Shown in pieces: positions 11,977 to 37,866 of a stretch of DNA of 37,866 nt. Every line of letters begins with the position of its first letter. Position 1 is the stretch's first letter. Where the stretch lies: NCBI GenBank assembly GCA_008080735.1, contig SHMW01000038.1, positions 1 to 37,866 of the forward strand, written 5' to 3'. Source of the stretch: Promethearchaeota archaeon (GTDB lineage: Archaea > Asgardarchaeota > Lokiarchaeia > Sigyniarchaeales > SOKP01). The notes beneath the pieces are model-generated. The model ran no database searches and was not told the origin of the DNA. It saw nothing but the letters and a program-made list of their open reading frames with translations. The position numbers were made by a program, and so were the translations under genes.

Positions 11977-11999
11977 TTTCCATTCTACATCTAAAATTT

Positions 12000-12038
12000 T
12001 TTAATAAAATCTTCCCCGAAATTTAATAAAAATCTTCC
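12000..12038. repeat. Short direct repeat in the xylB-trmB intergenic region
   Basis: tttaataaaatcttcc (12000-12015) and tttaataaaaatcttcc (12022-12038). Confidence 0.45.
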
Positions 12039-12283
12039 ACACGCAAAAAAGAGAAAATTCTAAAAGTTTAAATAGGAATTCAACACAATATATTTCAAAC
12101 ATAAAAGATTTCATTACACATACATTATCTTTTATTGAAATACCGATTTTGTTTAAAGTATAAAAAACCAAAATTTAATATTAATCACAAGATTAGTTAT
12201 CTTATCTATTTTAATTTTAAACTATATATCGTTTCAAAAAGCAAATATTTTGCTATATAAAATTACTAAACTGAAGATTTATT

Positions 12284-13081: not shown

Positions 13082-13162
13082 GTAGTTCAATATTTTGCAG
13101 TTAAAAAGTTTTCTTACTGGTTTTCTAAAAACTTATCTAATTCTGTTTCTTATTGTTTAAAT

Positions 13163-13954: not shown

Positions 13955-13965
13955 AGTGAAATAAT

Positions 13966-15987
13966 ATGGCAAACATAAGAGTCAAGTCCCATAATATTGA
14001 AATTCATTCCAATTATTGCATCATTGTAGGCTCTGGGGCTGCGGGATTGAATTGTGCTCTCCATCTTGTTGATGAAGGAGTGCCCGCAGAAAAGATCGCC
14101 ATTCTTACCGAGAAACTTGGGGGTGGAACCTCCTTCAATACCGGTTCAGATAAACAAACATACTACAAATTATCTATTATCGGAAATCAAGATGATAGTC
14201 CCTATCAAATGGCAAAGGATTTTTTACGAGGTGGGGCAATGCATGGAGATATTGCATTGATTGAATCGACAAATTCTGTCCGAGAATTCTTCCATTTAGT
14301 TGAATTAGGAGTTCCTTTTCCGCAAGATGAGTTTGGTGGGTATGTTGGATATAAAACAGACAATGATCCCAAACAGAGAGCGACCTCTATCGGCCCTCTT
14401 ACTTCACAAAAAATGTGTGAATGTCTTTTAAAATCAATAAGAGATACAGATATTAACATAATTGATAACCATTACGTAATCCACCTTATAACTGATGATA
14501 ATCAAGCCCCTCGTAAAGCAATTGGCTTAATTGCCTTAGATATTGTGAATCTCAAACAAGAAAGAGATATAAAAAACTTTATAGAAAGTCTTAAGATTTA
14601 CCTTGCAGATAATATTATCCTTGCTACGGGAGGTCCTGCTGCTCTCTATAAAAATTCCGTATATCCTCCCTCCCAATGTGGTAGTTTAGGGCTTGCGATA
14701 AATGCGGGGTGTAAGCTTCAAAACCTCACTGAATCCCAGTTTGGTCTAGCTTCTACACATTTTCGCTGGAATCTGTCGGGTTCTTATCAACAAGTTATAC
14801 CTAGGTATATATCACGAGATATGAAGGGGAAAGAAACGAAATTTTTAGACCAGTATTTTTCCTCTTTTGAATTATTATCTAGAGCAATCTTTCTGAAGGG
14901 GTATCAATGGCCGTTTAATTCAGAACGAATTGAGAAATTTGGTTCATCGTTGATAGATCTGGCGGTATATTATGAATCCGAAATATTAGGAAAGGATGTT
15001 TTTTTAGATTTTAGAAATAATCCAAATGAATATAATGAATCGAAATTACACCCGATCGCATATGAATATTTAAAAAACTCTGAAGCATTGGCTGATTCAC
15101 CAATTAAACGCCTCGAGAAATTAAATCCTGATGCGATTCATTTATATAAAAATCATGATATTGACCTTTGGAAGGAGCCCCTGCAAATAGCAGTATGTAA
15201 TCAGCACCTCAATGGAGGAATCTCGGGTGATATGTGGTGGGAAACAAATATCCAGAATCTTTTTGCTATTGGGGAGGTAAATGGGAGTCATGGAATACAC
15301 CGTCCAGGAGGAGCAGCACTTAATTCAGGACAAGTAGGTGGCCTAAGAGCAGCGCAAAAAATTGCCCATAAATCACGAAATATGCTTAGGCCAAAATTAA
15401 CCCAAACACCAGAAATTATTAAACCTATAATAACCTCATACATTAATCAGGTAAGTTCCCTCCTTGATAATAAAGATGAGTCACTCTATACCCCGAATAA
15501 GTTACTAGATCAAATAAGAAATAGGATGTCCCGATATGGGTCAATTATTAGACCACTAAAATCTCTTTCAAATAAATTGAAATCTCTCAAGCAGAACCTC
15601 CAAAACCTTCACTATAGATGCATTATCAATAATAATACCGAAATTCTAAAATATTTCAAAGTTAAGGATGCGCTCCTCACGCAATATTTTATCTTAAGCT
15701 CGATTTTAAATTATCACAAAATGTATGGAAGAAGCCGAGACTCCTATTTAGTCATAAGAGATAAACTTAAAGGGTCATTCAATGAAAGGTATATTGAACC
15801 TCCAGGTGCTCTTAATCAACTAAGATTTATTAGCAGCGAGAGTGATTTAAGCAATAAAATTCAGACCATCCAAGAGATTGATGGAAAAGTTATAATTGAA
15901 TGGGAAGATGTGAGACCGATTCCCACTGATTTTGGATGGTTTGAAAAAACCTGGAAACGATTTAAAAACGGAGATATCTTCAAATGA
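13966..15987 (+). CDS. SdhA/FrdA/NadB-fold FAD-dependent oxidoreductase of unknown substrate
   Basis: GSGAAG dinucleotide motif, LATGG, QHLNGG and GE-x-x-G-x-HG-x-x-RPGG-x-AL; GSDKQTYYK lies where SdhA has its covalent-FAD His segment. Confidence 0.8.
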   Translation: MANIRVKSHNIEIHSNYCIIVGSGAAGLNCALHLVDEGVPAEKIAILTEKLGGGTSFNTGSDKQTYYKLSIIGNQDDSPYQMAKDFLRGGAMHGDIALIESTNSVREFFHLVELGVPFPQDEFGGYVGYKTDNDPKQRATSIGPLTSQKMCECLLKSIRDTDINIIDNHYVIHLITDDNQAPRKAIGLIALDIVNLKQERDIKNFIESLKIYLADNIILATGGPAALYKNSVYPPSQCGSLGLAINAGCKLQNLTESQFGLASTHFRWNLSGSYQQVIPRYISRDMKGKETKFLDQYFSSFELLSRAIFLKGYQWPFNSERIEKFGSSLIDLAVYYESEILGKDVFLDFRNNPNEYNESKLHPIAYEYLKNSEALADSPIKRLEKLNPDAIHLYKNHDIDLWKEPLQIAVCNQHLNGGISGDMWWETNIQNLFAIGEVNGSHGIHRPGGAALNSGQVGGLRAAQKIAHKSRNMLRPKLTQTPEIIKPIITSYINQVSSLLDNKDESLYTPNKLLDQIRNRMSRYGSIIRPLKSLSNKLKSLKQNLQNLHYRCIINNNTEILKYFKVKDALLTQYFILSSILNYHKMYGRSRDSYLVIRDKLKGSFNERYIEPPGALNQLRFISSESDLSNKIQTIQEIDGKVIIEWEDVRPIPTDFGWFEKTWKRFKNGDIFK

Positions 15988-15993
15988 AAATTA

Positions 15994-17376
15994 CTAGCTT
16001 TTCACTTCATATGCGGGGTCTCGAATAACACAGCCGGTACTTTTTCCATTTTTCATAAGCTGAGAACATTGCGAGCACCCCACGCAAACCTTTTTGGGAT
16101 TAATCTCATCTTGTTGAAAAATTTGTCTGGGAAATTCGGGATTAGCAAAGGCCATTCTTCCGAATCCGCATATATCCACCTCATTATTCTTAATCAGATC
16201 TGCGCAGATATACGGGGAAAATTGCCGTAGGTAAGAATAGCCAGATCCCATAATTTTTATCTCTTCGGAAATCGATTTTTTAATTTCCGATGTCATTTTT
16301 ATTAATCTATAGACGCCACATAAGGGATGTTCAGAAGGTAGATTTGCCCCTTTTACGGGAATATCATAAGGTCTCGTAATATGTGGTTTATAGTGGGGAT
16401 TTCCCGCAGAAATATTGATTAATTTTATTCCTAAATTATCCAGCTCATTAATCAACTTAATTGGCTCAGTTAAATCGATGGATGCTGGAAATTCTTCTCC
16501 TTCAAGAGGTGCGACTCCAAATCCATTTGGATATGGAATTCCATCATAAATCCCTAATCGGGTTGTTATGATAAAATCCCCATTCTTAAAACAGCGTTTT
16601 TTAAGCTTTTTTATGACGTTCAAAAAAAATCGAGATCTATTTGCGAAATCATATCCTCCATAAAGAGAATCATTCCTTTCACGCGCGCCCAATAGTTCGC
16701 TTATCAAGTATCCGTGACACGCCTTAATATCCACTCCATCAAATCCTGCATCTCGAGCTAGAAGAGCTTTTTCGCCCCATTTCTCCTCTAATGCTATTAG
16801 TTCACTATCCTCAATAATTTTCCCGTCTTGTTCGGAAACATTGATTGCCTTATCTAATTGATAATTATGGTACGCCCGAATCGGATATTTAGTGTCCCCT
16901 TTTTTGCAGTATCGTCCCGAGTGATTTAACTGTAGAATGAATAGGCATTGCCCTGAAAACCCTAACTGTTCTAATGCGCTTTTACTAATTTTTTTAATAT
17001 GACTGACAAATTTACGATATTCATCCACATTTTCTTTGGTTATTGCTAATTGATGTTGATTTGATTTATATCCTTCAGAAATAGAAGTCGCCTCACACCA
17101 AATCAACCCCGCTCCTCCTTTCGCATACCGCGAATATCGCCGAACTGTCAGAAAACTCGGCCTGCCATCTCTTTTTGCGTCAAAACCTTCCATAGGTTGA
17201 ATCGCTAATCTGTTTGGGATTGATTTATTCCCAATAGATAGCGACCGTTTAAGAACTGCAAGATCATCGTTAAAATCTAATGCTAAATTTAATTCCGACA
17301 GTTTCTGCTTTAATTGAGTAAGTATTTTGTATTTGAATGGTTCAAAATGTTTACATTCTTTTCCCAATACTTTCAA
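15994..17376 (-). CDS. NADH:flavin oxidoreductase (old yellow enzyme family) with C-terminal Fe-S motif
   Basis: NRLAIQPME, GGAGLIW-x-E, QLNHSGR, AGFDGVDIKACHGYL, YGG-x-x-F-x-NR-x-RF and CVGCSQC-x11-C. Confidence 0.88.
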   Translation of the reverse strand: MKVLGKECKHFEPFKYKILTQLKQKLSELNLALDFNDDLAVLKRSLSIGNKSIPNRLAIQPMEGFDAKRDGRPSFLTVRRYSRYAKGGAGLIWCEATSISEGYKSNQHQLAITKENVDEYRKFVSHIKKISKSALEQLGFSGQCLFILQLNHSGRYCKKGDTKYPIRAYHNYQLDKAINVSEQDGKIIEDSELIALEEKWGEKALLARDAGFDGVDIKACHGYLISELLGARERNDSLYGGYDFANRSRFFLNVIKKLKKRCFKNGDFIITTRLGIYDGIPYPNGFGVAPLEGEEFPASIDLTEPIKLINELDNLGIKLINISAGNPHYKPHITRPYDIPVKGANLPSEHPLCGVYRLIKMTSEIKKSISEEIKIMGSGYSYLRQFSPYICADLIKNNEVDICGFGRMAFANPEFPRQIFQQDEINPKKVCVGCSQCSQLMKNGKSTGCVIRDPAYEVKS

Positions 17377-17482
17377 TGAGAGACTCCTTTTGTTTGAAAA
17401 TATGTTATAAAGAGTAAGTTAGGTAAAGGAATAAGTTTTTTGCCAAGAGATGAAAAATTGAATTAGGGAAATTGTCCAATTT

Positions 17483-18511
17483 TTACTTCTCCTTATTAAT
17501 TTCAAGAATTATTTTCAGGTTTTCTTCCTTATTGAAGGCTTGTTCAAATGCCTGTTGGGCTTTTTTCAGGGGTATTATTTTACTGATAAACAACTCTGGA
17601 GAAATTTCCTTATTAGCTAACATTTTTACCGCCTCTGTAAAGTCTCTCCTAATATACATTAGCGACCCGATCAATTCTAATTCTCTATCTTGGACATACG
17701 CCATTTGAACTTCAGTCTCTTCCCCAAACACACCAACCACAATTATTTTCCCACCCTTTCGCACAATCTCAATTGCATCACGGATACTTTGTTCGACTCC
17801 TACACACTCAAATACGACATCGATACCCTCATACGGTTGATTCTGTTTCATCTCTTCCATAGCATCTGTTTTAGTGGCATTAATTGTTTGGGTGGCTCCC
17901 AATATTTCTGCCTTTTTAAGTCTGGAGTCTGATAAATCAATTACAGTAATATTTTCTGCTCCACCCTTTACCACATTTGCTAATACAGAAAGGCCTATCA
18001 TCCCTGAACCTATGATGACTACGTTTTTATTTAGTAATACCCCCGCTTTTTTTGCTGCGTGGACTCCAACCGCGATTGGTTCACTTAGTACGGCATCCAA
18101 GAGAGACAAATCATCGGGGATGGGAATTACCTTTTCTGATGGAACGATTAAATAATCTGCCATTGCCCCGTCCCCTTGACATCCCATAACTCGTAAATTT
18201 TCGCAAATATTATATCTGCCAATACGACAATTATAACATTCTCCACAAGTCAGACTGGGCTCAACCGTTACTCTATCACCCTTTTTAAAATTTGATACCT
18301 CTTTTCCTACTTGTTCAATTATGGCTGAAAATTCATGCCCTGGTGTTGCGGGTAAGGGAATAAAAGGATGTTTTCCCTGGAACGCATGAAGATCTGACCC
18401 ACAAATTCCGCAATATGCAATCTCCAATAGAATTTCGCTGGGTTCTGGTTCTGGCATTTTTGGTTCCTTAATAACAATCTTATTTGGTTTTTGAATTACA
18501 ACTCTTCTCAT
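17483..18511 (-). CDS. Zn-dependent (MDR) polyol/sugar-acid dehydrogenase
   Basis: GICGSD, GHE, CGECYNC-x7-C and GSGMIG. ATG at 18511 (MRRVVI) follows GGAGG. Confidence 0.92.
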   Translation of the reverse strand: MRRVVIQKPNKIVIKEPKMPEPEPSEILLEIAYCGICGSDLHAFQGKHPFIPLPATPGHEFSAIIEQVGKEVSNFKKGDRVTVEPSLTCGECYNCRIGRYNICENLRVMGCQGDGAMADYLIVPSEKVIPIPDDLSLLDAVLSEPIAVGVHAAKKAGVLLNKNVVIIGSGMIGLSVLANVVKGGAENITVIDLSDSRLKKAEILGATQTINATKTDAMEEMKQNQPYEGIDVVFECVGVEQSIRDAIEIVRKGGKIIVVGVFGEETEVQMAYVQDRELELIGSLMYIRRDFTEAVKMLANKEISPELFISKIIPLKKAQQAFEQAFNKEENLKIILEINKEK

Positions 18512-18662
18512 TATATTCGCCTCCACACGTTTTTTGTATTTAATAGTGAAATTATGAATTTTAATAATTAGTTTATTAATTATCATAAATGGGGGTTTAT
18601 AATTTCAGAAAAAAATTGCGATGTAAAAAATCTTTAAAAAGAAAGAGATAAAAACTAAATTT

Positions 18663-18923
18663 TTACCACTTAACTGTTATAGCTTGCTCGGGACATATAT
18701 CGACGCATTTTAGGCACCGATTGCATAGAGATCCCCAGATCGGAGTAATACGCCAATCTTGAGGATCATAAGGATTTTCTTGCTTATCTTCGGTTCCGAT
18801 AGTCTCGTGCATCAAAAAGACCGCGGGATCACATGTTCGTAAACATTTGGCGCACTCTCTTGGGTCCACCTTTCCATTCTCCCCACAGAGAGAATACTCA
18901 ATTTCGATTTTTGTTCTTCCCAT
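18663..18923 (-). CDS. Small ferredoxin-like 4Fe-4S protein
   Basis: C-x9-CAKCLRTC and CNRCLKCVDICP. ATG at 18923 follows GAGGTG. Confidence 0.8.
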   Translation of the reverse strand: MGRTKIEIEYSLCGENGKVDPRECAKCLRTCDPAVFLMHETIGTEDKQENPYDPQDWRITPIWGSLCNRCLKCVDICPEQAITVKW

Positions 18924-18941
18924 TATTTTTTTACACCTCAA

Positions 18942-19814
18942 TTAATATTCTCCGTCAAATCCGGGGAATTCTTCTCGTGGAATTAATTTTAACGCATCAT
19001 TATTACAAGCATGACGGCACACTCCACAGCCAAAACATTTATCATAATCAATAATGACTCTGTCCATGGAAGGAATATAGCGAATCGCATTAAATTGACA
19101 CATCGCAACACATTGTTTACAGCCTTGGCATTTGTCTTGATCCAAATCAATAATATATTCTGCCTTGTAGAATGCTTTTAAGTCAAAATTGGTCCGAAGC
19201 GTAAGACCTCCGCATTCAGGACTCTCACAAGAGCAGATTGCATTAATATATGGAACGGGTTGAAACCATACAGATGCGATATATCCTTTTTTATTATTCT
19301 GTTCTAAAATTTCAATAGCTTCTTCCCTACTGATGGGATTTGTTCGCTCTTTGGGCATAAATCGGGGCATTTTTTCAAGAACACCAGATAATGCACCGAA
19401 ATTCAGACAGACTGCTTCTTTTTCACCTCGCTGCATCCACCTACACATACAATAATTACACAAAATAGGTTCTGCTGCGAGCTCGGAAAGAATTGCTTTT
19501 CCGTCCTCTAAGGGTATTGCTTGACCAAAATGACCATCCGCTCGTTGTGCATTCCTTCCCTCCTTTTCACTATGGATCATATTTTCGGCTTTCCAGCGTA
19601 GTAACCGCCCTATAATTGGCATTTGAAGTTTATATCCTAAATTTTTTGAAGAGAAACCCATAATTTTTCTGATAAAAACTGTTTCAAAATTCATCCATTG
19701 CTCTTCGAGATAATTCTTAAAATCCTCCTCATCTCCAAGCTGATCGGCTTGATAATTCTTCGCGTTCATATACCATTTCTTCCCAGCGCCGTGCTTTAAG
19801 CACCATTGACACAT
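18942..19814 (-). CDS. Multi-cluster 4Fe-4S binding protein
   Basis: N-terminal CQWC-x-x-HG, central CMC...C...ICSC...C, and C-terminal CQGCKQCVAMC and CFGCGVCRHAC. Confidence 0.85.
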   Translation of the reverse strand: MCQWCLKHGAGKKWYMNAKNYQADQLGDEEDFKNYLEEQWMNFETVFIRKIMGFSSKNLGYKLQMPIIGRLLRWKAENMIHSEKEGRNAQRADGHFGQAIPLEDGKAILSELAAEPILCNYCMCRWMQRGEKEAVCLNFGALSGVLEKMPRFMPKERTNPISREEAIEILEQNNKKGYIASVWFQPVPYINAICSCESPECGGLTLRTNFDLKAFYKAEYIIDLDQDKCQGCKQCVAMCQFNAIRYIPSMDRVIIDYDKCFGCGVCRHACNNDALKLIPREEFPGFDGEY

Positions 19815-20143
19815 AATCTCAATATCTCCTAATTTTTCTAAAAATAGTCTTGTATGTAATAGTGTTTGTAGTGAAAGTATTTAAAATTTAAAGCTTTTTG
19901 AGATAACTTCGAATATTAAAAGGTGAAAAAAATGAGGTAAAAGTTATTTCACTAAGAACAGTCAGATGAGGGAAAATGATTCTGATTTCATATAGTATTA
20001 TCTTGGTAAGCGAAGAACCTTAGAGAATGTAATGATTAATGCTCCTCTCATGTCAAAATTTGGTCTATATGCATTTAAATAAGGTAAATAGATCAAGAGC
20101 GTTAACATACAATTTAAAAAAAACCTAATTATGTGAATATACT

Positions 20144-23100
20144 GTGAAAAAATTATCAAGAGCGAAATCCGATAATATAGTTCTATTACTGGTGCTTCTA
20201 TTAATTTTTAGCGGATTTTCATATTTTACGTTAATTTCTAAAAATACAGTCCCGCCGAGAACCCCAATAGAAGATACTCCCGATGTGATAATAGATGAAA
20301 GAGATCCCCCTAAAACATCACAAACAGTGGTAGAATTTGATGAAGCGAATAGGACTATTATTCAAGGGATAGAGGAGAATGAATGGAATGAAGATCTCAT
20401 CAAATCTTATGATGATAGCTATGACAGTATACAATTTGCTTATAGTAGTGACATATTTTTCTGGTTTGAAGATACTGCTAACCCTAAAACAGTTACACAA
20501 TATTCATACCGTTGGGGAAGTACTGATGGTGGATTGTGGGATTTTACTGACGCTTACAAGGATGATGATGGAAAATATTTATATCTTGAAACACAACGGG
20601 GACATGGATTCCCAGGAACAATCTCTCTGAAATGGGGAGAATATAACGACTTCGCAGACTTTTGTGCATGGAATGTATACGCAATTTGGGTTAAATTCGA
20701 AATCTGGCCCGATACTAGCTCTCTAGATGGATTTGATGGTTCTAGTGACCTTAAATTAAGGGTTTATGCGGATGATGGTTCATACCAAGAAAAATTGATC
20801 GCTGCATCCCCCGTTGATGAACATCATTATGTTCAATTATGGAATATTCAAGGAGGACCGGTATTCGATCGCGTTAAAGCGGGAGGATATATTAAATACG
20901 CCCGAGTATCAATGTACGTAGATGAGGAGATATTTACATGGTGTTGGATAAATATTGATTATCTAGATATTTACTATTGGTATCGGAGATTCAATTTAGA
21001 AGTTGATTATGAGCTAGATTATGGAAGCCTCGGACTTGAAACAGTTGATAAGTTCGACTTGAAGATAAAAATGAACGAGACAAAACCGGGAACACAACTC
21101 TATCTATGGGATTATAATAATGAACAATGGGATTATATCCGCAACCTTGAAACATCAAACTCAACCATGATAATCCCAATACTTACAGATGGTGATAATT
21201 ATACGAGTGCTTCTAAAAAAATTAAAATACGCTTTCAAAACCTGAATTATCTCCCTTTTACTGATCCTTTGGAATGTGAATTAAAAATAGATATGATAAA
21301 ATTGGAATTATACCCACCAGAGACCCCCATGAATTTTATAGCAGAGAATGCAATGCAACAAGTCAGATTAACCTGGGATCCGCCAGCTTCCAATGGTCCG
21401 CCAATAGACCACTATAACGTGTACCGTGGAGAAACGCCTGGAGGAGGTAAAACTCTCATAGCAACGCCCAATACCACTAGTTATGATGATTATGGAATAA
21501 ATATCGGAAAAAGATATTATTATACGGTAAGTGCCACCAATTTCGCAGGTACAAGTGGAAACTCAACAGAAGATTCTGGATTGGGATTTGATGAACCTTT
21601 TATATCTTGGGTCACACCTCATGAGAATGAACAACTTGTCCTTCCTTTCATTGATCAATTTGCAACCTATACCACTTTCGGTTTTGAATATGAATGGACT
21701 GAATTAGATGATGCGATTTTAGAACTTGATTATGGAGTATTCCAGAAGAATTATACAGTGTGGGAAAACAACTCGATTGATATTGAATTTGATGATTATT
21801 ACGACGGCGCTGTAAATGCAACATTATATGGATTTAACCAAACTAAGGTAGTAGCTACAGATATCAGACATTTGAATTTTGTAAGAATTGACCTTGAAGC
21901 AATTGAAAACATTAATTCCAGCACAGAAGTATTAGGTGACCAGTTATATTTAATCCTTCACGACCCTAACGGAGATAATAGTTATTCTAGCTTTTCTCAA
22001 ACTACTCGAATATCAATGGGCGTGGGTTGCGAAATAACTACAGAAACTGGTATGAACGTGGAAATGGGTGACTATGGAGGACTTTTTGGAGTTGAAGTAG
22101 GCGCTTCCTTATTATTAGAACGCAAAGAAACATCAATAGAAGGATTTGATTTTCGATATGAAGTATCCGATACTATCATGCTGACTTCAAGTCAAGTGGA
22201 TGATAATGCAGACTATATTGGTCCCGGCTACGGAGATACTTATTGGGGTGAAGCATGGATTTTTAAATGGGTTCTAAATGCCACACGTAGACATTATACC
22301 AATGGAACTGAACGTTGGGAAGATCCTCAATTCTACTATGGAATAATTAGAGATCTACAAACGATTGTCAATCATGCAGATGCTCCTCTGGAATGGAGAA
22401 TCCAAAATGCAGTATTTAATGAGTCCTTACCCATTAGTTATATTATCCCTTTCGCTGAGAGTGGAGGGCAACCCTATACTTATGAGCATGAAGTTAGTAC
22501 AACTATAACAAGATCAAAGAGCTTTGAAGTTGATTTTGGAGTGGAGGCCAATACAAAAATTCCTGGTCTACGGACACAAAATACTTTTCAAATTAATACC
22601 AGAAATTACGCTGAAACCGAATCAGGGCATTCTCATACGGTTTCCTATGAAATTTATGATAATGATCCCGATGATTTCCTTGTTATGGAAATAGGGATAG
22701 ATCATAGATTTGGTACCTTTATTTTTAATACCTCATCATTTTTCTGTGAAACCTCCAATCCATACGAACATAATACCTATGATTATTTACCTCCTGTGAT
22801 TGAATTCCCCGAGATAGATTTGGATTCTGATGGTGATTCGTTTGCTCCCTCTCCAGAGGATTCTCCAATAGTGACTACAGAAATTTTTGAAGAGGACGAC
22901 ATACAACTAGCGGTGATATGGTATTCTACAAATAATGGTTCTTCTTGGCAAGTGGCATATCTTACAGAACTAATTGGAGATCCAGACAAATGGCGTGGTA
23001 GCATTCCGGCACAACCAAGTGATACTAAGATCCTGTGGTATATCGAAGCATGGGATCAGCACGGTAATAACGCAACACGATTCAATGAGATATTGGAACC

Positions 23101-23923: not shown

Positions 23924-25015
23924 TCACTTAAAATATCGCTTTAAGTCTTTAATTGATATTTTTTCTGTAGAGAGAATCCCATGAATAAACTTGAAAATTT
24001 TCCTTCTTATAGTAGAATCCAAATCGGGATACCATATAGGAGATCCGATTACTAATCCTCTCCACGCATAAAAAGGAGCAGCTAGAGTTAGGATTTGTTT
24101 ATCGCTTGTATTCTCTAAATATGTATTCCAGAATATCTTAAAAAGTTCGAAAAACTCATTCATAAGCTTACCTTCTGTTTGCAATGAATAGAATAGATAA
24201 TTTATACTCAACGCGGTCACATCATCAGCTGCTTCTCCCCATTCACCCCTACTTCGGTCAATCACCGAAAAATCGAGACCTTCCCGAAAAAGGATATTCC
24301 ATGGATGAAAATCCCCGTGAACTTGACATAATCGCCCTTTTTTGTTTTTTATCTTGTATCTCCAATCAACACATTTTTTTTCAATCGATTTAAGTTCTTC
24401 TTGAGTGGGAAAATCCAAGTTATTTGGGTAGCTATCAGTCAATCCCATAATACACTCCCCATGCCCTAGCAACTCTCTGATTCTTCTCTTGTATAGCGCA
24501 TCAGTATCCTCTTTCTTAGTATGTATTGTAGCTAAATAGTCCGCCAAAGTGTTGGCTCTTTCCTTATCTAAAAGGGAAATTGATTCAGTTTCTACAATCT
24601 TTTCCAAATCCGCAAAATAAAGCGTTCCATCGATCTTTTCTCTTACTAAAAACAGTTCTTTACAATCTCCCGCCGATTTGAACTCATCGTTGGTAGTAAA
24701 TGAGCCTACATCGATTGATTTTGCATGTGCTGGCAATTTATTATAAGATGAATGGGCCAACAATAATGATTTCGCCCGATCATAGAAGAACTGATGTCCG
24801 AACTCATTTTTATTCATAGTAGACATTATATAACTTTTTTTGTCTTCGTTTGCAATGAATTCTATGAGCAAATTTTTTCCATAACCAAATTCCTTTAAAT
24901 CCTCATCGGAAGCTTTACTTTTGTCTATTGGACCAATATATTGAATAGTGATTTTTGTGTCTAAGACTTCTTCTAAATAGGTTTGTATTTTAACTCTAAA
25001 ATCGGTTTCCGGCAT
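23924..25015 (-). CDS. APH/choline kinase-like phosphotransferase
   Basis: Brenner motif HGDFHPWNIL, then ID-RSRG and G-x-x-x-DD; LA-x-IH. Confidence 0.85.
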   Translation of the reverse strand: MPETDFRVKIQTYLEEVLDTKITIQYIGPIDKSKASDEDLKEFGYGKNLLIEFIANEDKKSYIMSTMNKNEFGHQFFYDRAKSLLLAHSSYNKLPAHAKSIDVGSFTTNDEFKSAGDCKELFLVREKIDGTLYFADLEKIVETESISLLDKERANTLADYLATIHTKKEDTDALYKRRIRELLGHGECIMGLTDSYPNNLDFPTQEELKSIEKKCVDWRYKIKNKKGRLCQVHGDFHPWNILFREGLDFSVIDRSRGEWGEAADDVTALSINYLFYSLQTEGKLMNEFFELFKIFWNTYLENTSDKQILTLAAPFYAWRGLVIGSPIWYPDLDSTIRRKIFKFIHGILSTEKISIKDLKRYFK

Positions 25016-27257: not shown

Positions 27258-28178
27258 TTAGGAAAGTTGCGTTCTTAATTCTTCTGACATTCCAGATCCC
27301 ACATTTCCATTGGTTTTATCTTCCATTATAACCATTTGTTCAAATAATTCAGTATACCCATCTTCATAATCCCGTGCGAATCTCATAAAGCTATTGTTAG
27401 ATATACGCTTAGCCAATACATTATATCTATTGTTGTTTTTATCGATTAGTGTATATTCAGTAATTATCGGACTATTAAACGCATCATTACCATATGTTGG
27501 GCTGACTTCCACTTCTTCGAGAGGGGTTGTTTCATTTCCATCCCAAATATATCCCGAAACTTCCACTCCATCGTTTCGATAATCTTTTCGAAACCCCGAT
27601 GCCCAGTTCTTGAATTGGAAATGTCCAGCATACCATTTTTCAAATCCGTGCCAATCTCTATATCCCCAACTCTTATCGCGTTGTCCATACCCGTTTAATT
27701 GGATTTTTCTCCCACTTTTTTTTGTCAAAGTTCCTGTGACTATACCGGAAGATTCAAAATGTCGATGCCAAGAAGCCGAAGAATCTTTTCCGAAATAATA
27801 GATTGGATGTCGATTTGAAAAGGTTAGTTCGAATGTATACTTTCGTGAAACATATTTGATTTTCCACTCTTCTAATGGTTTGATTATTTGATAAGTCAGT
27901 TTCTTGTCTGAAAGCATCTCATCAATATCATTTTGGATATATTCAGTAAGCTCTGGTTCACGATAATAAACATCTCGCTTATTATCTCTAAAAAGAATAA
28001 AGACAAATTCTCTTTTATGTTCATTAGGAACAATTCCTAACGTTGTAAAGCCCGATATCTTATTTTCTGAATCTATCCAATTAAAATAATACGATTCTCT
28101 CCATTTTTCTCTCTCATCAGGTTTATGAAGATAGTCATCAGAGAGATTTACGTTCTCTATTCGCTTTCTTTCACCCAT
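27258..28178 (-). CDS. Beta-rich tocopherol cyclase/CrtC/AttH-like hypothetical protein
   Basis: H...WRESYYFNW, PL-x-x-W-x-I, HFE-x-x-G-x-V-x-G and G-x-GQRDKSWG-x-R-x-W, typical of double beta-barrel cyclase/hydratase-like proteins. Confidence 0.6.
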   Translation of the reverse strand: MGERKRIENVNLSDDYLHKPDEREKWRESYYFNWIDSENKISGFTTLGIVPNEHKREFVFILFRDNKRDVYYREPELTEYIQNDIDEMLSDKKLTYQIIKPLEEWKIKYVSRKYTFELTFSNRHPIYYFGKDSSASWHRHFESSGIVTGTLTKKSGRKIQLNGYGQRDKSWGYRDWHGFEKWYAGHFQFKNWASGFRKDYRNDGVEVSGYIWDGNETTPLEEVEVSPTYGNDAFNSPIITEYTLIDKNNNRYNVLAKRISNNSFMRFARDYEDGYTELFEQMVIMEDKTNGNVGSGMSEELRTQLS

Positions 28179-28181
28179 TTT

Positions 28182-29339
28182 CTATTCCTCAGCCATTAGG
28201 TATAGTGATGGACCTTCTTTTTTTTTCTTTCGAGGGGTTCGAAAATGTCGTGTGATACCAGCATCAAAATCAGTTTCCATAAATTCGGGAACATATTTAT
28301 TCATTGTCCGTTCAGTAAGATCCCACTCAATTTGATCGGTTATTCCCACGAAGTTCGTGTATCTCGCATATCCATAGCAATAGGCATAAGCTCCCGCAAT
28401 TAGTTTTTGTTTTCTATCCCATTGGGAAAACTTTACATATAATTCCTTTTGTGCGTTTTTCGCGTAATTATTATATGCATCTAAAACATCTAAGTCCATA
28501 GGTAATATTTTATCCCCCTCTCGTCGCAGTAACGCAACTCCGGTTATCCGCTCGGTAAACGTTTTCGGTTCGGTGTCCATAGTCGCAAAATTATCAAATT
28601 CTGCCTTTACATTCTTCAATCGAAACGCAAACGCAATATTGGAGTGCGGTGCTGTTGCTTTTGTCTCTGACCATGGAAAATGTGGTTTACCTCCATCATA
28701 TAAATGCATAATTTCTCTAAACACTAGAATTTCATCCTCATTAATTTGATATGGTCCATGATCACACAGTTTCGCTCGAGCCTCACATTCATCCAAAAAT
28801 GCAATTACTTCGATGTTTGCCATCACTCTCTTAATCTTTTTAACCTCTTCGGTTTCAATCTCTTGGAGTTGATCCAGAGTCCAATTAATATCCTTTTGAT
28901 CAATAGCGGGATATTTTCCACCTAAATCACTTACAAATAGTTCATTATCAGGATAATAGGAAGAGGCAAGCCTTTTCCAGAAATCAAGCACAAAAAGGGT
29001 TTCTTCCCTTTTTTCTTGGCTTACCTTCTTTGGATCTCCGCCCATTCGATGGATCTCTCCCATCCTCCCCTCCATATAATATAAAGGAATATAGTTTATT
29101 GTTAAAGAATTTAATTCAGACAAAATTTTCCTACTTGCTTTTCCCATATTTTCGGGAGTTGTTTTTTCTGCGACTTTCTTTAAAATATTATATAGCATAT
29201 CATAGGCATTATAAAAGGACACGCATATATAGGCAGTAACAGGGAATAATTGGGACTCCAACAATCCTCGTTTGTTAATCTGAGCGTCTAATGTCTCAGA
29301 AATATGTGCAATTAACTCGTTAGCTTCTTTTACATTCAT
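28182..29339 (-). CDS. Hypothetical soluble protein (385 aa); candidate substrate-binding subunit of a split dikinase
   Basis: Long intact ORF with no TM segment and no motif I can name; 3 nt from the next gene and divergent from the PEP-utilizer genes. Confidence 0.6.
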   Translation of the reverse strand: MNVKEANELIAHISETLDAQINKRGLLESQLFPVTAYICVSFYNAYDMLYNILKKVAEKTTPENMGKASRKILSELNSLTINYIPLYYMEGRMGEIHRMGGDPKKVSQEKREETLFVLDFWKRLASSYYPDNELFVSDLGGKYPAIDQKDINWTLDQLQEIETEEVKKIKRVMANIEVIAFLDECEARAKLCDHGPYQINEDEILVFREIMHLYDGGKPHFPWSETKATAPHSNIAFAFRLKNVKAEFDNFATMDTEPKTFTERITGVALLRREGDKILPMDLDVLDAYNNYAKNAQKELYVKFSQWDRKQKLIAGAYAYCYGYARYTNFVGITDQIEWDLTERTMNKYVPEFMETDFDAGITRHFRTPRKKKKEGPSLYLMAEE

Positions 29340-29454
29340 AATGATAAAGTGAATAAATTTTAATTCTAATAAAATCTTACTAATGTTAACTGGTTGCTAA
29401 GTTTTACCGAAGCATATTATAAAATCACAAAAAAATTGGAATTTAGGAAATTTT

Positions 29455-29808
29455 ATGAAGATCTTAGGGAAGGGATTATCTTGCTCCTCTAAGGAAGTGG
29501 CTACGGGTGAACTAGTATATATTAAAAATGTGCAGGATGTAATCGCTTTATTTGATAATGCTCAAGGAAAAATCTGTTTAGTTGAAGATGCGGGAACCAC
29601 CACATTAGGACCGATCTTGTCTGATATCGAGGGAGTAGTGTGTACGACTGGTGGTCCGGGGTCTCATCTTGCGATTGTTTCACGGGAGTTTGACATCCCA
29701 TGTATTATGGCGATTAATATCAAATCCGAAAACCTTCCTAAATTAGATGGATTGCAAGCTAAAATAATAACCAAAAATGAAGACGATGGAATATTAGCCT
29801 CTTTATAG
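29455..29808 (+). CDS. Stand-alone PEP-utilizing enzyme mobile (swivel phospho-His) domain
   Basis: G-x-G-x-S...ATG, GVVCTTGGPGSHLAIVSREFDIPCI with His71; the ORF ends after the domain. Confidence 0.9.
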   Translation: MKILGKGLSCSSKEVATGELVYIKNVQDVIALFDNAQGKICLVEDAGTTTLGPILSDIEGVVCTTGGPGSHLAIVSREFDIPCIMAINIKSENLPKLDGLQAKIITKNEDDGILASL

Positions 29809-29847
29809 TAAAAAAACATATAAAATTAAAGAAAAACCTCATGATCT

Positions 29848-30819
29848 ATGAAATACATTCGACAATTCTATGAGAATCTTCATGATATTACACTTTTAGG
29901 TGGGAAAGGTTTAAATCTGGTTAAATTATTCAACGAAAATTTTAATGTCCCACCAGGATTTATTTTAACAACTAAAGCTCAGAAAGACTTTATGAATAAT
30001 TCTGAGCATAAAGAGAAATTATTTAGCTTGATTTCAAAAGACATCCAGCTGGGGAATCTCCTGTCCGACTCGGAGAAAATTCAGAACTTAATTTTAGATT
30101 CTACAATTCCAGTTGAAATATTAAATGAAATAAAAAATGCATATATTTCCTTAAAGAGACACCTAAAGCGAGGTAAAAGATATGCTGTAAGGTCGTCGGC
30201 GACTATAGAAGATTCTCAAATAGCTTCTTTTGCGGGCCAAGCAGATACCTATCTCTTTCGAGAAAGCCTCGAAGAAATTATATATTCAATTAAAAAATGT
30301 TGGACATCTCTTTATTCTCCACGTTCAATCTTATATATCACTCAATTGAATAAAATGGGCAAGAATATATCTCTTGATCAAGTATATATGGCGGTTGTTG
30401 TCCAAGAAATGATTCACTCGGACATTTCGGGAGTTCTCTTTACAGCAAATGTGTTGAATAATAATCGAGATCAAATTCTTATTAATTCTTGTTGGGGGTT
30501 GGGGGAAGCTTTAGCAAATAATATTGTCATCCCCGATACCATTATCTTGGATAAGGATTCTTCTCAAGTAGTGCGGCAGATTATTGGAAAAAAGGAAAAA
30601 ATGGTGGTTCCAGATATGGAACATTCTTGTACTAAAATTACCGAAACAAGAAAAAATCAAAGAAAAAATATTTGCATCAGCCAAGACCAAATTAAAAATC
30701 TTCATCGTTGTGCTGTAGATATCGAATCTTTATATGAGTACCCCCAAGATATCGAATGGGCGATTAAAGATAACGAAATTTTTATCTTACAGACTCGACC
30801 TATCACTACATTAAATTAA
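29848..30819 (+). CDS. Stand-alone PPDK/PEP-synthase N-terminal ATP-grasp domain
   Basis: GGKG-x-NL, VPPGF, AVRSSA-x-x-ED...SFAGQ, MAVVVQEM, SGVLFT, WGLGE, PQDIEWA and LQTRPIT; stop immediately after the domain. Confidence 0.92.
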   Translation: MKYIRQFYENLHDITLLGGKGLNLVKLFNENFNVPPGFILTTKAQKDFMNNSEHKEKLFSLISKDIQLGNLLSDSEKIQNLILDSTIPVEILNEIKNAYISLKRHLKRGKRYAVRSSATIEDSQIASFAGQADTYLFRESLEEIIYSIKKCWTSLYSPRSILYITQLNKMGKNISLDQVYMAVVVQEMIHSDISGVLFTANVLNNNRDQILINSCWGLGEALANNIVIPDTIILDKDSSQVVRQIIGKKEKMVVPDMEHSCTKITETRKNQRKNICISQDQIKNLHRCAVDIESLYEYPQDIEWAIKDNEIFILQTRPITTLN

Positions 30820-30867: not shown

Positions 30868-31323
30868 TTAAGGCTTTAAAAACGCCTTTTTTCCGAGGAA
30901 TATAAATAATTCTCCTAATTCAAAAAGAGTAAGCGGTTGGATAAGCATTGCCATCTTATTTCTTAGTTCTTGTTTGTCTAACCCTGCTGTAATTAACTTT
31001 TCTATGTCTTGAATGTAATCTTCCATATTTAAAAACAGGATCTCAATTTTTGCAACACCCGTCAGTTCTTCAATATCTTTATCCAAATGCTCTTCAATTT
31101 GGTTTAAAAGACCGATTTTCACTTTAGGTATTAGTTCATATTTTTTAATTAACCGATTGATCTCTTCCAATATAATATTTAAGGATAAATTCCAATCTGC
31201 TGTTTCCTTATATTTCGGGATTAAAATCTCGCTTATCATTATTTCATAAAGCGTTTTTGGAGCTTTTTCGTCAAATTCTACTTCTGTTCCGGTACTCAAT
31301 TCTAATTTTGTAGTTTCAGCCAT
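30868..31323 (-). CDS. Hypothetical helical protein
   Basis: 151-aa ORF filling the gap between neighbours, with typical composition and no recognisable motif. Confidence 0.6.
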   Translation of the reverse strand: MAETTKLELSTGTEVEFDEKAPKTLYEIMISEILIPKYKETADWNLSLNIILEEINRLIKKYELIPKVKIGLLNQIEEHLDKDIEELTGVAKIEILFLNMEDYIQDIEKLITAGLDKQELRNKMAMLIQPLTLFELGELFIFLGKKAFLKP

Positions 31324-36684: not shown

Positions 36685-37866
36685 TTATGGACCCTTTATA
36701 TTCGGCAAATATTTTTCATCGCAAGTATGGATGAGCTTGTCGACATAATTATACATTTTCGCGGCTAATTCTGGATGGGATAAGAGCTGCACTTCTATTT
36801 TATCATCGTGATCCCACATATTATGCGGAGTTTCTTCATGAGATACTTTTTGCCTCACTTCTTCAACCCACTTATCGGGTAGATGATTCTCAAGGCTGAT
36901 TCCTAACATTTGGGCTAAAAACAAAGTCCAAGCTCGGGGTACTACTGTCATTAGATATCCACCCCCGCCAAATGCGAGCCATTTATCATTACAATAATCC
37001 TCGGCATATTGATTAATATGTTCAGCAAGCTTTTTATGCAATTTGATTGATACTCCCAATTGTGTTAAAGGATCGTTATAATGTGTATCAACTCCGAGTT
37101 GTGTCGCTAAAATATCTGGTTGATATTTTTTCAGTATCTTTGGGACGCATTCCGTAAAGATTTTTAAATACATCTTATTATTTGTGCCAGGAATCAGTGG
37201 AAAATTGATTGAATGTCCTTCTCCTTCTCCTTTACCCGTCTCTTCTGTTCCTCCCGAACCGGGGAACAAGTACTTACCGCTTTCATGTAGTGAAATAGTC
37301 AAAACGTTAGGATCGTCATAAAATAACCACTGTACACCATCTCCATGGTGGCAATCAATGTCTAAATATGCTATTCGGATGTCCCGCTTTAATGATTTTA
37401 AATGTTTGAATGCCACTGCGATGTCGTTAAAAATACAGAATCCCGAGGCTCTGTCTCTTAATGCGTGATGTAATCCTCCAGCAGGGTTGAAAGCATAATT
37501 AAAATCATCATTTGTCCAGATCGTGTCTGCCGCTGTAATACTTGCACCACAAACCAATGCTGACGCTTCATACATTCCTTTAAAGATAGGATTATCCCCA
37601 GGCCCTAAGCCATAGATGAAGGGTTTCGTACTGTTATCATCTGGATTCTTGCTCAACTTTTTGACGATATTAATATAATCAGAGGAATGAACTCGTGCAA
37701 TTTCCTTTTCTGTAGCGTGCCGAGGAGTAAATATTTCAATACTTTCATGATTAAGAAGCCCTATTTTTTCCATAAGGCTATAGGTTAACTCTAAGCGAAG
37801 TGGTCTTAGCGGGTGAGATGCTCCAAAATTATACTTGGAGTACTCCTCAGTATAGATCAATCCCAC
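36685..37866 (-). CDS. acuC: Zn-dependent deacetylase, AcuC/class I HDAC-like; probably 5'-truncated at the window edge
   Basis: HP-x-x-P-x-R, GGLHHA, SGFCIFND, DIDCHHGDG, SLHE, GVDTH-x-x-DPL and GGGGY. Confidence 0.9.
   Translation of the reverse strand: MGLIYTEEYSKYNFGASHPLRPLRLELTYSLMEKIGLLNHESIEIFTPRHATEKEIARVHSSDYINIVKKLSKNPDDNSTKPFIYGLGPGDNPIFKGMYEASALVCGASITAADTIWTNDDFNYAFNPAGGLHHALRDRASGFCIFNDIAVAFKHLKSLKRDIRIAYLDIDCHHGDGVQWLFYDDPNVLTISLHESGKYLFPGSGGTEETGKGEGEGHSINFPLIPGTNNKMYLKIFTECVPKILKKYQPDILATQLGVDTHYNDPLTQLGVSIKLHKKLAEHINQYAEDYCNDKWLAFGGGGYLMTVVPRAWTLFLAQMLGISLENHLPDKWVEEVRQKVSHEETPHNMWDHDDKIEVQLLSHPELAAKMYNYVDKLIHTCDEKYLPNIKGP

What the first reader, a model, noticed from the sequence alone, without database searches (positions are those of the whole stretch)
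27258..30819. Candidate undescribed split dikinase system: free ATP-grasp, free phospho-His carrier, unknown 385-aa subunit and cyclase-like protein
Seen: a 117-aa swivel His domain and a 323-aa PPDK-type ATP-grasp domain are separate, intact genes. They are in the reverse order of PEP synthase domains, and no pyruvate/PEP-binding barrel is present in the window. A 115-bp gap separates them from a divergent, tightly coupled pair (385 aa unknown; 306 aa beta-rich; 3 nt apart). Established: PPDK, PEP synthase, rifampin phosphotransferase (RPH), glucan water dikinase and phenylphosphate synthase all use ATP-grasp -> phospho-His -> a variable acceptor-binding domain, and phenylphosphate synthase spreads these over several subunits. 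Inference: the 385-aa protein is a new acceptor-binding subunit, making a three-polypeptide dikinase with a diffusible phosphocarrier that phosphorylates a non-pyruvate hydroxyl compound, with the 306-aa protein acting on the substrate or product.
Basis: partly seen in the sequence, partly recalled or inferred. Interest (0 to 1): 0.82.

Follow-up and report, generated by a model that had tools for sequence, protein, structure and literature searches.

The report
Split dikinase feeding a phosphate lyase
An Asgard archaeon carries a conserved four-gene set that most likely removes water from a hard-to-activate alcohol at the cost of ATP: an ATP-binding protein, a free phospho-histidine carrier, an acceptor protein with no known fold, and a relative of 25-phosphosteroid lyase; no such multi-part enzyme was found in the literature searched.

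Summary
Observation confirmed. All four ORFs, the 115-nt divergent gap, the 3-nt gap and His71 are as described. The genome has full-length PEP synthase and PPDK but no free PEP/pyruvate barrel.

- In 36 loci fetched from other Asgard genomes, the 385-aa and 306-aa genes are present together in 36/36. The free His gene is present in 33/36 and the free ATP-grasp in 30/36, despite rearrangements.
- In bacteria the 385-aa family is fused to, or adjacent to, PF00391 swivel-His domains.
- The 385-aa protein folds confidently (pLDDT 96) and matches no solved structure.
- The 306-aa protein is a homologue of 25-phosphosteroid lyase (Foldseek E 4e-14; profile E 9e-12). The shared RDxSWGxR motif is invariant.
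- Five genomes have one His/grasp pair but two 385/306 pairs, which points to a shared carrier.

Best reading: a three-part dikinase (ATP to AMP + Pi) phosphorylates an alcohol, and the lyase then expels the phosphate. The substrate is unknown.

This scan reached the same reading on other Asgard genomes (e1-5561490, e1-5584943, e1-5555371). I rate it a new variant of a known kind.

The parts
29848..30819 (+). Free PPDK/PEPS-type ATP-grasp (nucleotide-binding) subunit, 323 aa
   Evidence: PF01326 at 290 bits, covering positions 2-312 of 328. The best solved relative is archaeal PEP synthase 8A8E (E 1.6e-58), followed by RPH. Present in 30/36 related loci.
29455..29808 (+). Free swivel phospho-histidine carrier, 117 aa, catalytic His71
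   Evidence: PF00391 E 1.7e-10. Aligns to the swivel domain of 8A8E across the GG..SH/AIVSRE motif. His71 is invariant in 35/35 sequences, and the gene is present in 33/36 loci.
29340..29454 (.). 115-nt AT-rich divergent intergenic region, presumed to hold both promoters
   Evidence: Sequence read. The divergent arrangement is conserved in most orthologous loci. The promoters are inferred and were not tested.
28182..29339 (-). 385-aa protein of unmatched fold, the proposed phospho-acceptor (substrate-binding) subunit
   Evidence: No Pfam or NCBIfam hit. The AF2 model has pLDDT 96.3 and pTM 0.93. Best Foldseek E against the PDB is 0.21, best VIA Z is 4.5, and the profile search of PDB sequences gives nothing below E 0.55. 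The top 120 hits are 65-93% identical across Lokiarchaeia. R188 and G195 are invariant family-wide; R24, R92, P196, Y197 and G316 are nearly so. Fused or adjacent to PF00391 in bacteria.
27258..28178 (-). 306-aa homologue of 25-phosphosteroid lyase (DUF7065 + DUF7064, AttH-like double beta-barrel), the proposed phosphate-eliminating lyase
   Evidence: The AF2 model has pLDDT 89.8. Foldseek hits 9G4C/9FZN/9G2I at E 4e-14 to 3e-12 with TM 0.70-0.73. VIA gives Z 24.5 (rmsd 3.2 over 270 residues) to 9FZN, tied with AttH, kievitone hydratase and the Diels-Alderases. With profile A4, 25-PSL is the only significant PDB hit (E 9.3e-12), aligned through RDxSWGxR. H18, E28, H140, D168, S170, G172 and R174 are each conserved in 37 of the 38 aligned sequences, the 38th having a gap there, and W171 in all 38. 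The gene lies 3 nt after the 385-aa gene.
30868..31323 (-). 151-aa protein of unknown function, a lineage-restricted neighbour of the grasp gene
   Evidence: No Pfam, NCBIfam or PADLOC hit. Next to the grasp gene in 9-10 closer loci and absent from the distant orthologue loci. Membership of the system is uncertain.
18942..19814 (-). 290-aa Fe-S protein (C-terminal 2x[4Fe-4S]), a possible accessory redox partner that is displaced about 7.4 kb from the module in this window
   Evidence: Fer4 domains at residues 222-280, N-terminal 215 aa unassigned. Its family occurs in 19 of 37 loci. It usually lies directly beside the 306-aa gene or the grasp gene and is often followed by a ~95-aa ferredoxin.

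Best explanation
The cluster encodes an ATP-dependent 'phosphorylate, then eliminate' system built from four separate proteins.

Proposed steps, all inferred from homology and gene context:
1. The 323-aa ATP-grasp binds ATP and pyrophosphorylates or phosphorylates His71 of the free 117-aa swivel protein, as in PEP synthase, RPH and PpsAB (ATP to AMP + Pi).
2. The phospho-His protein docks on the 385-aa protein, a new acceptor module that replaces the PEP/pyruvate barrel or the rifampin-binding domain. It passes the phosphate to a hydroxyl group of a small, probably hydrophobic molecule.
3. The 306-aa 25-phosphosteroid-lyase homologue, whose gene lies 3 nt downstream of the 385-aa gene, eliminates the phosphate. 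The product would be an alkene or another carbocation-derived compound.

The net result is dehydration of an alcohol that is hard to activate. Spending two anhydride bonds makes sense if the phosphoester is as energy-rich as the tertiary C25 steroid phosphate. For that compound, an ordinary ADP-forming kinase reaches equilibrium with a constant below 1.

The substrate is unknown.
For: His71 is invariant.

The four families stay together in Asgard genomes across deep divergence (385-aa identity down to 30%) and across changes of gene order and strand. The 385 and 306 genes co-occur in 36/36 fetched loci.

There are natural fusions of PF00391 to the 385 domain. Free His genes lie next to 385-like genes in Rhodococcus, Methylibium and Paraburkholderia. 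DUF7065/7064 genes sit in the same clusters in Methylibium and Paraburkholderia, and a PPDK_N gene sits there in Paraburkholderia and Rhodococcus.

An HMM built from the Asgard His proteins scores the 385-linked bacterial His domains at 1e-17 to 1e-23, but scores the His domain of PPDK_N-His proteins at only about 1e-4. This points to a dedicated carrier clade.

The 306-aa family is homologous to 25-PSL by fold and by profile. The invariant Asp of RDxSWGxR aligns with the only position in the aligned region where the phosphate-plus-product complex 9G4C differs from 9FZN (D to N).

Five f12 genomes each hold one free His and one free grasp but two 385+306 pairs, one of them on another contig.

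The genome has its own complete PEPS and PPDK and no free barrel. The energetics of tertiary phosphoesters are from PMC8449060.
Against: There is no biochemical evidence, and no substrate hint that holds across loci.

The role of the 385-aa protein rests on context and fusion alone. Its fold matches nothing, so a scaffold, regulator or different catalytic role is not excluded.

The fold group of the 306-aa protein also contains hydratases and pericyclases with similar VIA Z-scores. The narrow profile A3 found no PDB hit.

That the 9G4C Asp-to-Asn change marks a catalytic residue is my inference; I could not read the structure paper.

In one locus (L031) the main-type 385 gene has neither partner beside it. 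The f12 MAGs are only 83-89% complete.

The known 25-PSL works with an APH-type kinase, not a dikinase.
Confidence: 0.62

Rival explanations
1. The same three-part dikinase, but the 306-aa protein acts first. It would be a hydratase of the kievitone hydratase / CrtC type that adds water to an alkene. The dikinase would then phosphorylate the resulting alcohol to make an activated phosphate ester, which is kept as the product.
For: By VIA, the 306-aa model is as close to AttH (Z 26.8) and kievitone hydratase (Z 23.9) as to 25-PSL (Z 24.5). Gene order says nothing about reaction order.
Against: At sequence level 25-PSL is the only significant PDB hit (E 9.3e-12), and it shares the invariant RDxSWGxR motif. 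The hydratases and Diels-Alderases do not appear in that search. 25-PSL also ranks first by Foldseek.
Confidence: 0.12
2. The dikinase phosphorylates a ketone to an enol phosphate, as with pyruvate to PEP. The enol phosphate would then feed a carboxylase or another enzyme, and the 306-aa protein would process it differently.
For: In Novosphingobium and Rhodococcus plasmids, 385-family genes lie beside biotin carboxyl carrier, biotin carboxylase and PYC-type carboxyltransferase genes. This recalls the kinase-then-carboxylase logic of the Hpe pathway.
Against: No carboxylase genes recur in the 37 Asgard loci. The universal Asgard partner is the 25-PSL homologue. The bacterial clusters with carboxylase genes either lack a DUF7065/7064 gene within the flanks examined (L032, L033) or have only a weak, below-threshold DUF7065 hit (L062).
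Confidence: 0.1
3. The 385-aa protein is not a substrate-binding catalytic subunit. It could be a scaffold, regulator or protein target of the phospho-His relay, with the 306-aa protein working independently.
For: The fold has no known relative, so no catalytic analogy can be drawn. No active site could be inspected.
Against: It is the most conserved of the four proteins. Three Arg residues (R24, R92, R188) are invariant or nearly so across a family with 27% mean identity. It has been fused repeatedly to the swivel domain at the place where dikinases carry their acceptor domain. Several paralogous copies occur per genome or plasmid, each with its own downstream enzyme. That pattern suggests specificity modules.
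Confidence: 0.1
4. The split genes are remnants or spare parts of PEP synthase and reconstitute ordinary PEP synthase activity.
For: The ATP-grasp is closest to archaeal PEP synthase.
Against: The genome has an intact 786-aa PEP synthase and a 925-aa PPDK, and no free barrel. Both split genes are intact and conserved, with an invariant His, across at least 30 loci. The f12 genomes have the split pair but no PEP synthase and no free barrel.
Confidence: 0.02

Closest known systems
25-hydroxysteroid kinase (25-HSK) + 25-phosphosteroid lyase (25-PSL), the ATP-dependent dehydratase of Sterolibacterium denitrificans (PMC8449060, PMC7411048; PDB 9FZN/9G2I/9G4C)
   Same: The logic is the same: a kinase followed by a phosphate-eliminating lyase. 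The 306-aa protein is homologous to 25-PSL by fold and by profile, and it shares the RDxSWGxR motif.
   Different: There the kinase is a single 40-kDa APH-type, ADP-forming, freely reversible enzyme, and its gene is not linked to the lyase gene. Here the kinase is a three-protein His-swivel dikinase encoded next to the lyase gene. Identity to 25-PSL is only 16-18%, so the substrate need not be a steroid.
Two-component small-molecule dikinases HpeHI, CreHI, PpsAB and AcvAB, and single-chain rifampin phosphotransferase RPH (PMC12167813, PMC4844700)
   Same: The PPDK_N-type ATP-grasp is a separate polypeptide. Phosphate passes through a swivel His to a non-pyruvate hydroxyl group. The proposed stoichiometry is ATP to AMP + Pi.
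   Different: In those enzymes the swivel is fused to the C-terminus of a rifampin-binding-type acceptor domain. Here the swivel is a free 117-aa protein, and in the bacterial fusions it is N-terminal. The 385-aa acceptor shows no detectable similarity to RPH by Foldseek, VIA or profile. The known enzymes feed carboxylases, not a lyase.
PEP synthase / pyruvate phosphate dikinase
   Same: The ATP-grasp and swivel-His domains are homologous. The grasp is closest to archaeal PEP synthase 8A8E.
   Different: There is no PF02896 barrel in the cluster. The regulatory Thr two residues before the His is absent (GGPGSH, against GGxTxH in PEP synthase as quoted). The polypeptides are separate.
Bacterial PTS (enzyme I to HPr to enzyme II)
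   Same: Conceptually similar: a small free phospho-His protein carries phosphate between a donor enzyme and interchangeable acceptor modules. In the f12 genomes one carrier appears to serve two acceptor pairs.
   Different: HPr has a different fold. Here the carrier is the swivel domain itself, and the donor is ATP through an ATP-grasp rather than PEP.

Membership tests
His-swivel dikinases (PEPS/PPDK/RPH superfamily) | Full-length PPDK_N (PF01326) ATP-grasp nucleotide-binding domain | tested here: met
   290 bits over positions 2-312 of 328. E 1.6e-58 to PEP synthase 8A8E.
His-swivel dikinases (PEPS/PPDK/RPH superfamily) | PF00391 swivel domain with the catalytic His in a GGxxxH motif | tested here: met
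   PF00391 E 1.7e-10. GGPGSH with His71, invariant in 35/35. Aligned to the 8A8E swivel.
His-swivel dikinases (PEPS/PPDK/RPH superfamily) | ATP converted to AMP + Pi through a phospho-His intermediate | not testable with these tools
   Needs an enzyme assay.
PEP synthase / PPDK proper | C-terminal PEP/pyruvate-binding TIM barrel (PF02896) | tested here: not met
   No PF02896 on this contig. All three genomic matches lie in full-length 786-978-aa frames elsewhere.
RPH / HpeHI / PpsAB-type small-molecule dikinases | Acceptor domain homologous to the rifampin-binding domain of RPH | tested here: inconclusive
   No RPH chain appears among the Foldseek hits (best E 0.21) or the VIA hits (best Z 4.5). 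The profile search of PDB sequences finds no RPH at E up to 10. Absence from these lists does not prove that the folds differ.
RPH / HpeHI / PpsAB-type small-molecule dikinases | Swivel domain fused C-terminally to the acceptor domain | tested here: not met
   The swivel is a separate 117-aa gene here. In the bacterial fusions of this family it is N-terminal.
25-phosphosteroid lyase family (DUF7065 + DUF7064) | Pfam DUF7065 and DUF7064 domains | tested here: met
   DUF7065 scores 64.4 bits (cut-off 27). DUF7064 scores 24.2 bits, just under its 24.7 cut-off. Relatives are annotated with PF23213 and PF23212.
25-phosphosteroid lyase family (DUF7065 + DUF7064) | Structural and sequence homology to solved 25-PSL, including the RDxSWGxR motif | tested here: met
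   Foldseek E 3.9e-14, TM 0.73. VIA Z 24.5. Profile A4 hits 9FZN at E 9.3e-12 as the only significant PDB hit. The motif is invariant.
25-phosphosteroid lyase family (DUF7065 + DUF7064) | Phosphate elimination from a phosphorylated alcohol | not testable with these tools
   Needs an enzyme assay with the unknown substrate.
25-HSK/25-PSL ATP-dependent dehydratase system | APH-type ADP-forming kinase as the partner of the lyase | tested here: not met
   The conserved partners are the dikinase parts. A weakly APH-like 363-aa gene at 23924-25015 recurs in only one close relative (L016) and is not among the recurrent neighbours.

The most novel reading that the evidence does not exclude
This would be a widespread but unrecognised class of modular dikinase, found in Asgard archaea, Nitrososphaerota, Actinomycetota and Proteobacteria. 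In it, the swivel-His domain has become a free, shared phosphocarrier, analogous to HPr of the PTS. It shuttles phosphate from an ATP-grasp to interchangeable acceptor subunits of a new fold. In Asgard archaea it would drive AMP-forming dehydration of tertiary, isoprenoid-like or sterol-like alcohols through a 25-PSL-type lyase. That would be oxygen-independent chemistry so far known only from bacterial steroid degradation.
Probability: 0.3. Interest if true: 0.85.

Novelty: new variant of a known kind. Interest (0 to 1): 0.72.

Why it matters
If correct, it matters in four ways.
- It adds a third acceptor architecture to the His-swivel dikinases, beside the PEP barrel and the rifampin-binding type.
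- It would be the first case in which the swivel domain itself works as a free carrier.
- It extends the recently discovered kinase-plus-phosphate-lyase route for ATP-dependent dehydration from one betaproteobacterial steroid pathway to a conserved module of Asgard archaea and several bacterial catabolic plasmids.
- It gives a testable function to a highly conserved Asgard protein family that has no annotation and to the DUF7065/7064 (Rv3169-type) proteins, and it offers a thermodynamic reason for pairing a dikinase with such a lyase.

Tried and rejected
Neighbourhoods came instead from `search for related loci`, `genome search`/`fetch from genomes` and the plasmid collection.
- The metagenome scan with alignment A2 failed because A2 has no conserved stretch long enough. 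I did not repeat it.
- Foldseek and VIA searches of the 385-aa model found no credible relative. The profile search of PDB sequences and the ESM Atlas found none either.
- The narrow 306-aa profile A3 found nothing in the PDB. Only the wider profile A4 did. The single Methylibium sequence found nothing.
- The idea that the 151-aa neighbour equals the 153-aa Methylibium protein was rejected (E 22).
- The idea that the long 385-family proteins carry a fused 306-like domain was rejected.
- Anti-phage defence was rejected: no PADLOC hit for any of the five proteins.
- I looked for the ATP-grasp partner on the Methylibium plasmid and found only two full-length PPDK-like genes about 25 kb away, which is uninformative.
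- Jacoby 2020 did not identify the dehydratase genes.
- Literature searches for DUF7064/7065 or Rv3169 function and for three-component or free-swivel dikinases found nothing relevant.
- The N-terminal domain of the recurrent Fe-S protein stayed unassigned.


Full report
**1. Observation**

The window is contig C38 of a 4.1-Mb Asgard (Lokiarchaeia/Promethearchaeota) MAG with about 34% GC.
- The 117-aa protein is a PF00391 swivel domain with His71 in GGPGSHLAIVSRE.
- The 323-aa protein is a complete PF01326 ATP-grasp (290 bits).
- The 385-aa protein matches no Pfam or NCBIfam model.
- The 306-aa protein matches DUF7065 (64 bits) and DUF7064 (24.2 bits, just under the cut-off), and weakly the Rv3169 family.

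The divergent gap is 115 nt and the 385/306 gap is 3 nt.

The genome separately encodes a 786-aa PEP synthase, a 925-aa PPDK, a 978-aa three-domain paralogue and a 917-aa RPH-like protein. Every PF02896 barrel lies inside one of the full-length frames. So the split pair is not needed for, and cannot simply rebuild, PEP synthase.

**2. Conservation in Asgard archaea**

The 385-aa protein is very well conserved. The best 120 database hits are 65-93% identical and almost all are 384-393 aa long. A search of 1.8 billion representative proteins found 195 clusters at E up to 0.001.

In a sample of 201 Asgard genomes, 52 carry the gene. They fall in five families, often with 2-3 paralogues per genome.

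I fetched 36 loci from other genomes. They include orthologues at 40-45% identity and paralogues at 30-38%. I scanned them with my own HMMs.
- 385-like gene: present in 36/36 loci.
- 306-like gene: present in 36/36 loci.
- Free His gene: present in 33/36 loci.
- Free ATP-grasp gene: present in 30/36 loci.

Two of the loci without a grasp gene stop at contig ends. L031 is a real exception: its main-type 385 copy has no partner beside it.

Gene order and strand differ between subfamilies. Some are divergent as in this window. In a 457-aa subfamily the His gene precedes the 385 gene on the same strand. In family f12 the His-grasp pair lies 4-5 kb upstream. The set nevertheless stays together. His71 is invariant (35/35).

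**3. Linkage outside Asgard archaea**

They do.
- Fusions: a Gordonia otitidis 575-aa protein, a metagenomic 516-aa cluster and a Rhodococcus opacus 793-aa protein each have an N-terminal PF00391 domain followed by the 385 domain.
- Rhodococcus plasmids pA and pRB98 each carry three 385-family copies. Every copy directly follows, or is fused to, a PF00391 domain. A 579-aa PPDK_N+PF00391 protein lies nearby.
- Methylibium petroleiphilum PM1 has the order DUF7065/7064, then 385-like, then a small ORF, then a free PF00391 gene.
- Paraburkholderia PGU19 has the order DUF7065/7064, then a free PF00391 gene, then 385-like, then a PPDK_N+PF00391 gene.
- Novosphingobium has a 385-like gene followed by genes for a biotin-dependent carboxylase set.

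The Asgard-derived His HMM scores the 385-linked bacterial His domains at 1e-17 to 1e-23. It scores the His domain of PPDK_N-His proteins at only about 1e-4. This suggests a dedicated carrier lineage. The family also occurs in Nitrososphaerota and in Gaiella-type Actinobacteria.

**4. The 385-aa protein**

AlphaFold2 with a 74-sequence alignment gives pLDDT 96.3 and pTM 0.93. The model has helical bundles around a seven-stranded sheet.

None of the searches finds a credible relative. Foldseek against the PDB gives a best E of 0.21. VIA against 48,161 representative chains gives a best Z of 4.5. A profile search of PDB sequences gives a best E of 0.55. In particular, no RPH chain appears. The rifampin-binding domain of RPH is the acceptor domain of HpeH, PpsA and CreH. 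I treat this absence as inconclusive rather than as proof of a new fold.

Across the whole family (27% mean identity), R188 and G195 are invariant, and R24, R92, P196, Y197 and G316 are nearly so. Three conserved arginines would suit a phosphate site. That is inference, because I could not inspect the model's coordinates.

**5. The 306-aa protein**

The model (pLDDT 89.8) is an all-beta double barrel.
- Foldseek's top five chains are 25-phosphosteroid lyase (9G4C, 9FZN, 9G2I; E 4e-14 to 3e-12; TM 0.70-0.73).
- VIA gives Z 24.5 to 9FZN. This is tied with AttH (26.8), kievitone hydratase (23.9) and the Fsa2/CghA/Phm7 Diels-Alderases.
- A profile that includes the paralogues and the Methylibium member (A4) finds 25-PSL as the only significant PDB sequence (E 9.3e-12). 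The alignment runs through the motif RDxSWGxR.
- In the aligned region, the 9G4C chain (phosphate plus product complex) differs from 9FZN only by Asn at that Asp.

In the Asgard family H18, E28, H140, D168, S170, G172 and R174 are each conserved in 37 of the 38 aligned sequences, the 38th having a gap there, and W171 in all 38.

In Sterolibacterium, 25-PSL works after 25-HSK. 25-HSK is an APH-type, ADP-forming kinase whose reaction is fully reversible, because the tertiary phosphoester is about as energy-rich as the beta-gamma bond of ATP.

**6. Mechanism proposed**

The proposed sequence is as follows.
1. ATP-grasp plus ATP loads phosphate onto His71 of the free carrier.
2. The 385-aa acceptor subunit takes the phosphate onto a substrate hydroxyl.
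3. The 306-aa lyase eliminates the phosphate.

A dikinase spends two anhydride bonds. That would pull an otherwise unfavourable phosphorylation forward, which is a plausible reason to pair it with a 25-PSL-type lyase. This last point is inference.

There is support for a carrier that acts in trans. Five f12 genomes each contain exactly one free His frame (129-133 aa), one free grasp frame (338-369 aa) and one PPDK. Each also contains two 385+306 pairs, one of them on another contig. The caveat is that these MAGs are 83-89% complete.

In the bacterial clusters the ATP-grasp carries its own His domain in addition to the 385-linked one. This raises the possibility of a His-to-His relay there, which I did not test.

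**7. Rivals**

I considered four rivals.
- A hydratase-first order of reactions.
- Formation of an enol phosphate from a ketone, suggested by the bacterial carboxylase contexts.
- A non-catalytic role for the 385-aa protein.
- PEP synthase spare parts.

The last is contradicted. The others remain possible at low probability.

**8. Context and substrate**

The immediate neighbours in this window (gamma-glutamyltransferase, DUF498, PepQ) are not conserved with the module.

The recurrent neighbours are a 290-aa Fe-S protein plus a ~95-aa ferredoxin (19 and 13 of 37 loci), an alpha/beta hydrolase (9 loci), an HDAC-type deacetylase (10 loci) and a 151-aa unknown protein (9 loci). The bacterial contexts are catabolic plasmids carrying CoA ligases, acyl-CoA dehydrogenases, a P450 and alcohol and aldehyde dehydrogenases.

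These point to catabolism or salvage of a hydrophobic oxygenated compound. They do not identify it.

**9. Novelty**

Two-component dikinases and the kinase-plus-lyase dehydratase are each known. Three things were not found in the papers I could search.
- A free swivel carrier.
- This acceptor family.
- The pairing of a dikinase with a 25-PSL homologue.

I could not read the 25-PSL structure paper.

This scan has already reached the same reading on other Asgard genomes (e1-5561490, e1-5584943, e1-5555371). I derived mine before seeing those notes.

What this report adds:
- the bacterial fusions and clusters;
- the one-carrier, two-acceptor genomes;
- the Fe-S neighbours;
- the alignment of the invariant Asp with the 9G4C variant.

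Noticed in passing
window 18942-19814 (-); also L024:3859-4992, L041:3475-4622, L028:12180-13361: A 290-aa protein with a C-terminal 2x[4Fe-4S] domain and an unassigned 215-aa N-terminal part recurs in 19 of 37 loci, often followed by a ~95-aa ferredoxin. The pair lies directly beside the dikinase/lyase module, next to the 306 gene in one orthologue group and next to the grasp gene in another. In this window about 7.4 kb of other genes separate it from the module.
   Followed up: partly
L036-L044 (e.g. L041:8288-11120); window 36685-37866 (-): An alpha/beta hydrolase (S9/S33-like, ~560 aa) and an HDAC-type deacetylase (~396 aa) recur next to the module (9 and 10 loci). This hints at a longer pathway acting on an acylated or acetylated compound.
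   Followed up: partly
L032 (R. pyridinivorans pA) 7157-19725; L062 (R. oxybenzonivorans pRB98) 8410-21608: Each Rhodococcus plasmid carries three His+385 modules (one fused) in about 12 kb. With them are an acyl-CoA synthetase, an AMP-binding protein, a 579-aa PPDK_N+His protein that lacks a barrel, and biotin carboxylase genes. An ATP-grasp with its own His domain plus extra His carriers suggests a possible His-to-His relay.
   Followed up: partly
L034 (Methylibium petroleiphilum PM1 plasmid) 6126-9917 and 14029-16813: The DUF7065/7064, 385-like and free-His cluster lies a few kb from genes for a B12-binding domain protein, an AMP-binding ligase and MeaB. From memory, these resemble the 2-hydroxyisobutyryl-CoA mutase genes of tertiary-alcohol (MTBE/TBA) degradation. 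That identification is unverified.
   Followed up: no
G011, G096, G122, G073, G052 (family f12 genomes): These Asgard genomes show a PPDK but no PEP synthase-type frame. Their only other PF01326 and PF00391 matches are the free grasp and free His genes.
   Followed up: partly
window 23924-25015 (-): A 363-aa protein has weak APH/kinase-like hits (PF01636 E 1.7e-4) and lies 2.2 kb from the lyase gene. 25-HSK, the known partner of 25-PSL, is APH-type. This gene, however, recurs only in the closest relative (L016).
   Followed up: partly
L031:46-2528 and 7803-8957: One contig carries a diverged 385/306 paralogue pair on opposite strands. It also carries a main-type 385 gene with no 306, His or grasp gene beside it, the only such exception seen.
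   Followed up: no
G000:C1:114033-116678 (own genome, other contig): A 917-aa protein has an N-terminal PPDK_N domain and a C-terminal PF00391 domain, which is the RPH/PRK06241-like architecture. It is a single-chain non-pyruvate dikinase candidate in the same genome.
   Followed up: no
P0182 / P0167 (Burkholderia ambifaria 726 aa; metagenomic 728 aa): These 385-family proteins have an unassigned C-terminal extension of about 350 aa. It is neither a His domain nor a 306-like domain.
   Followed up: partly
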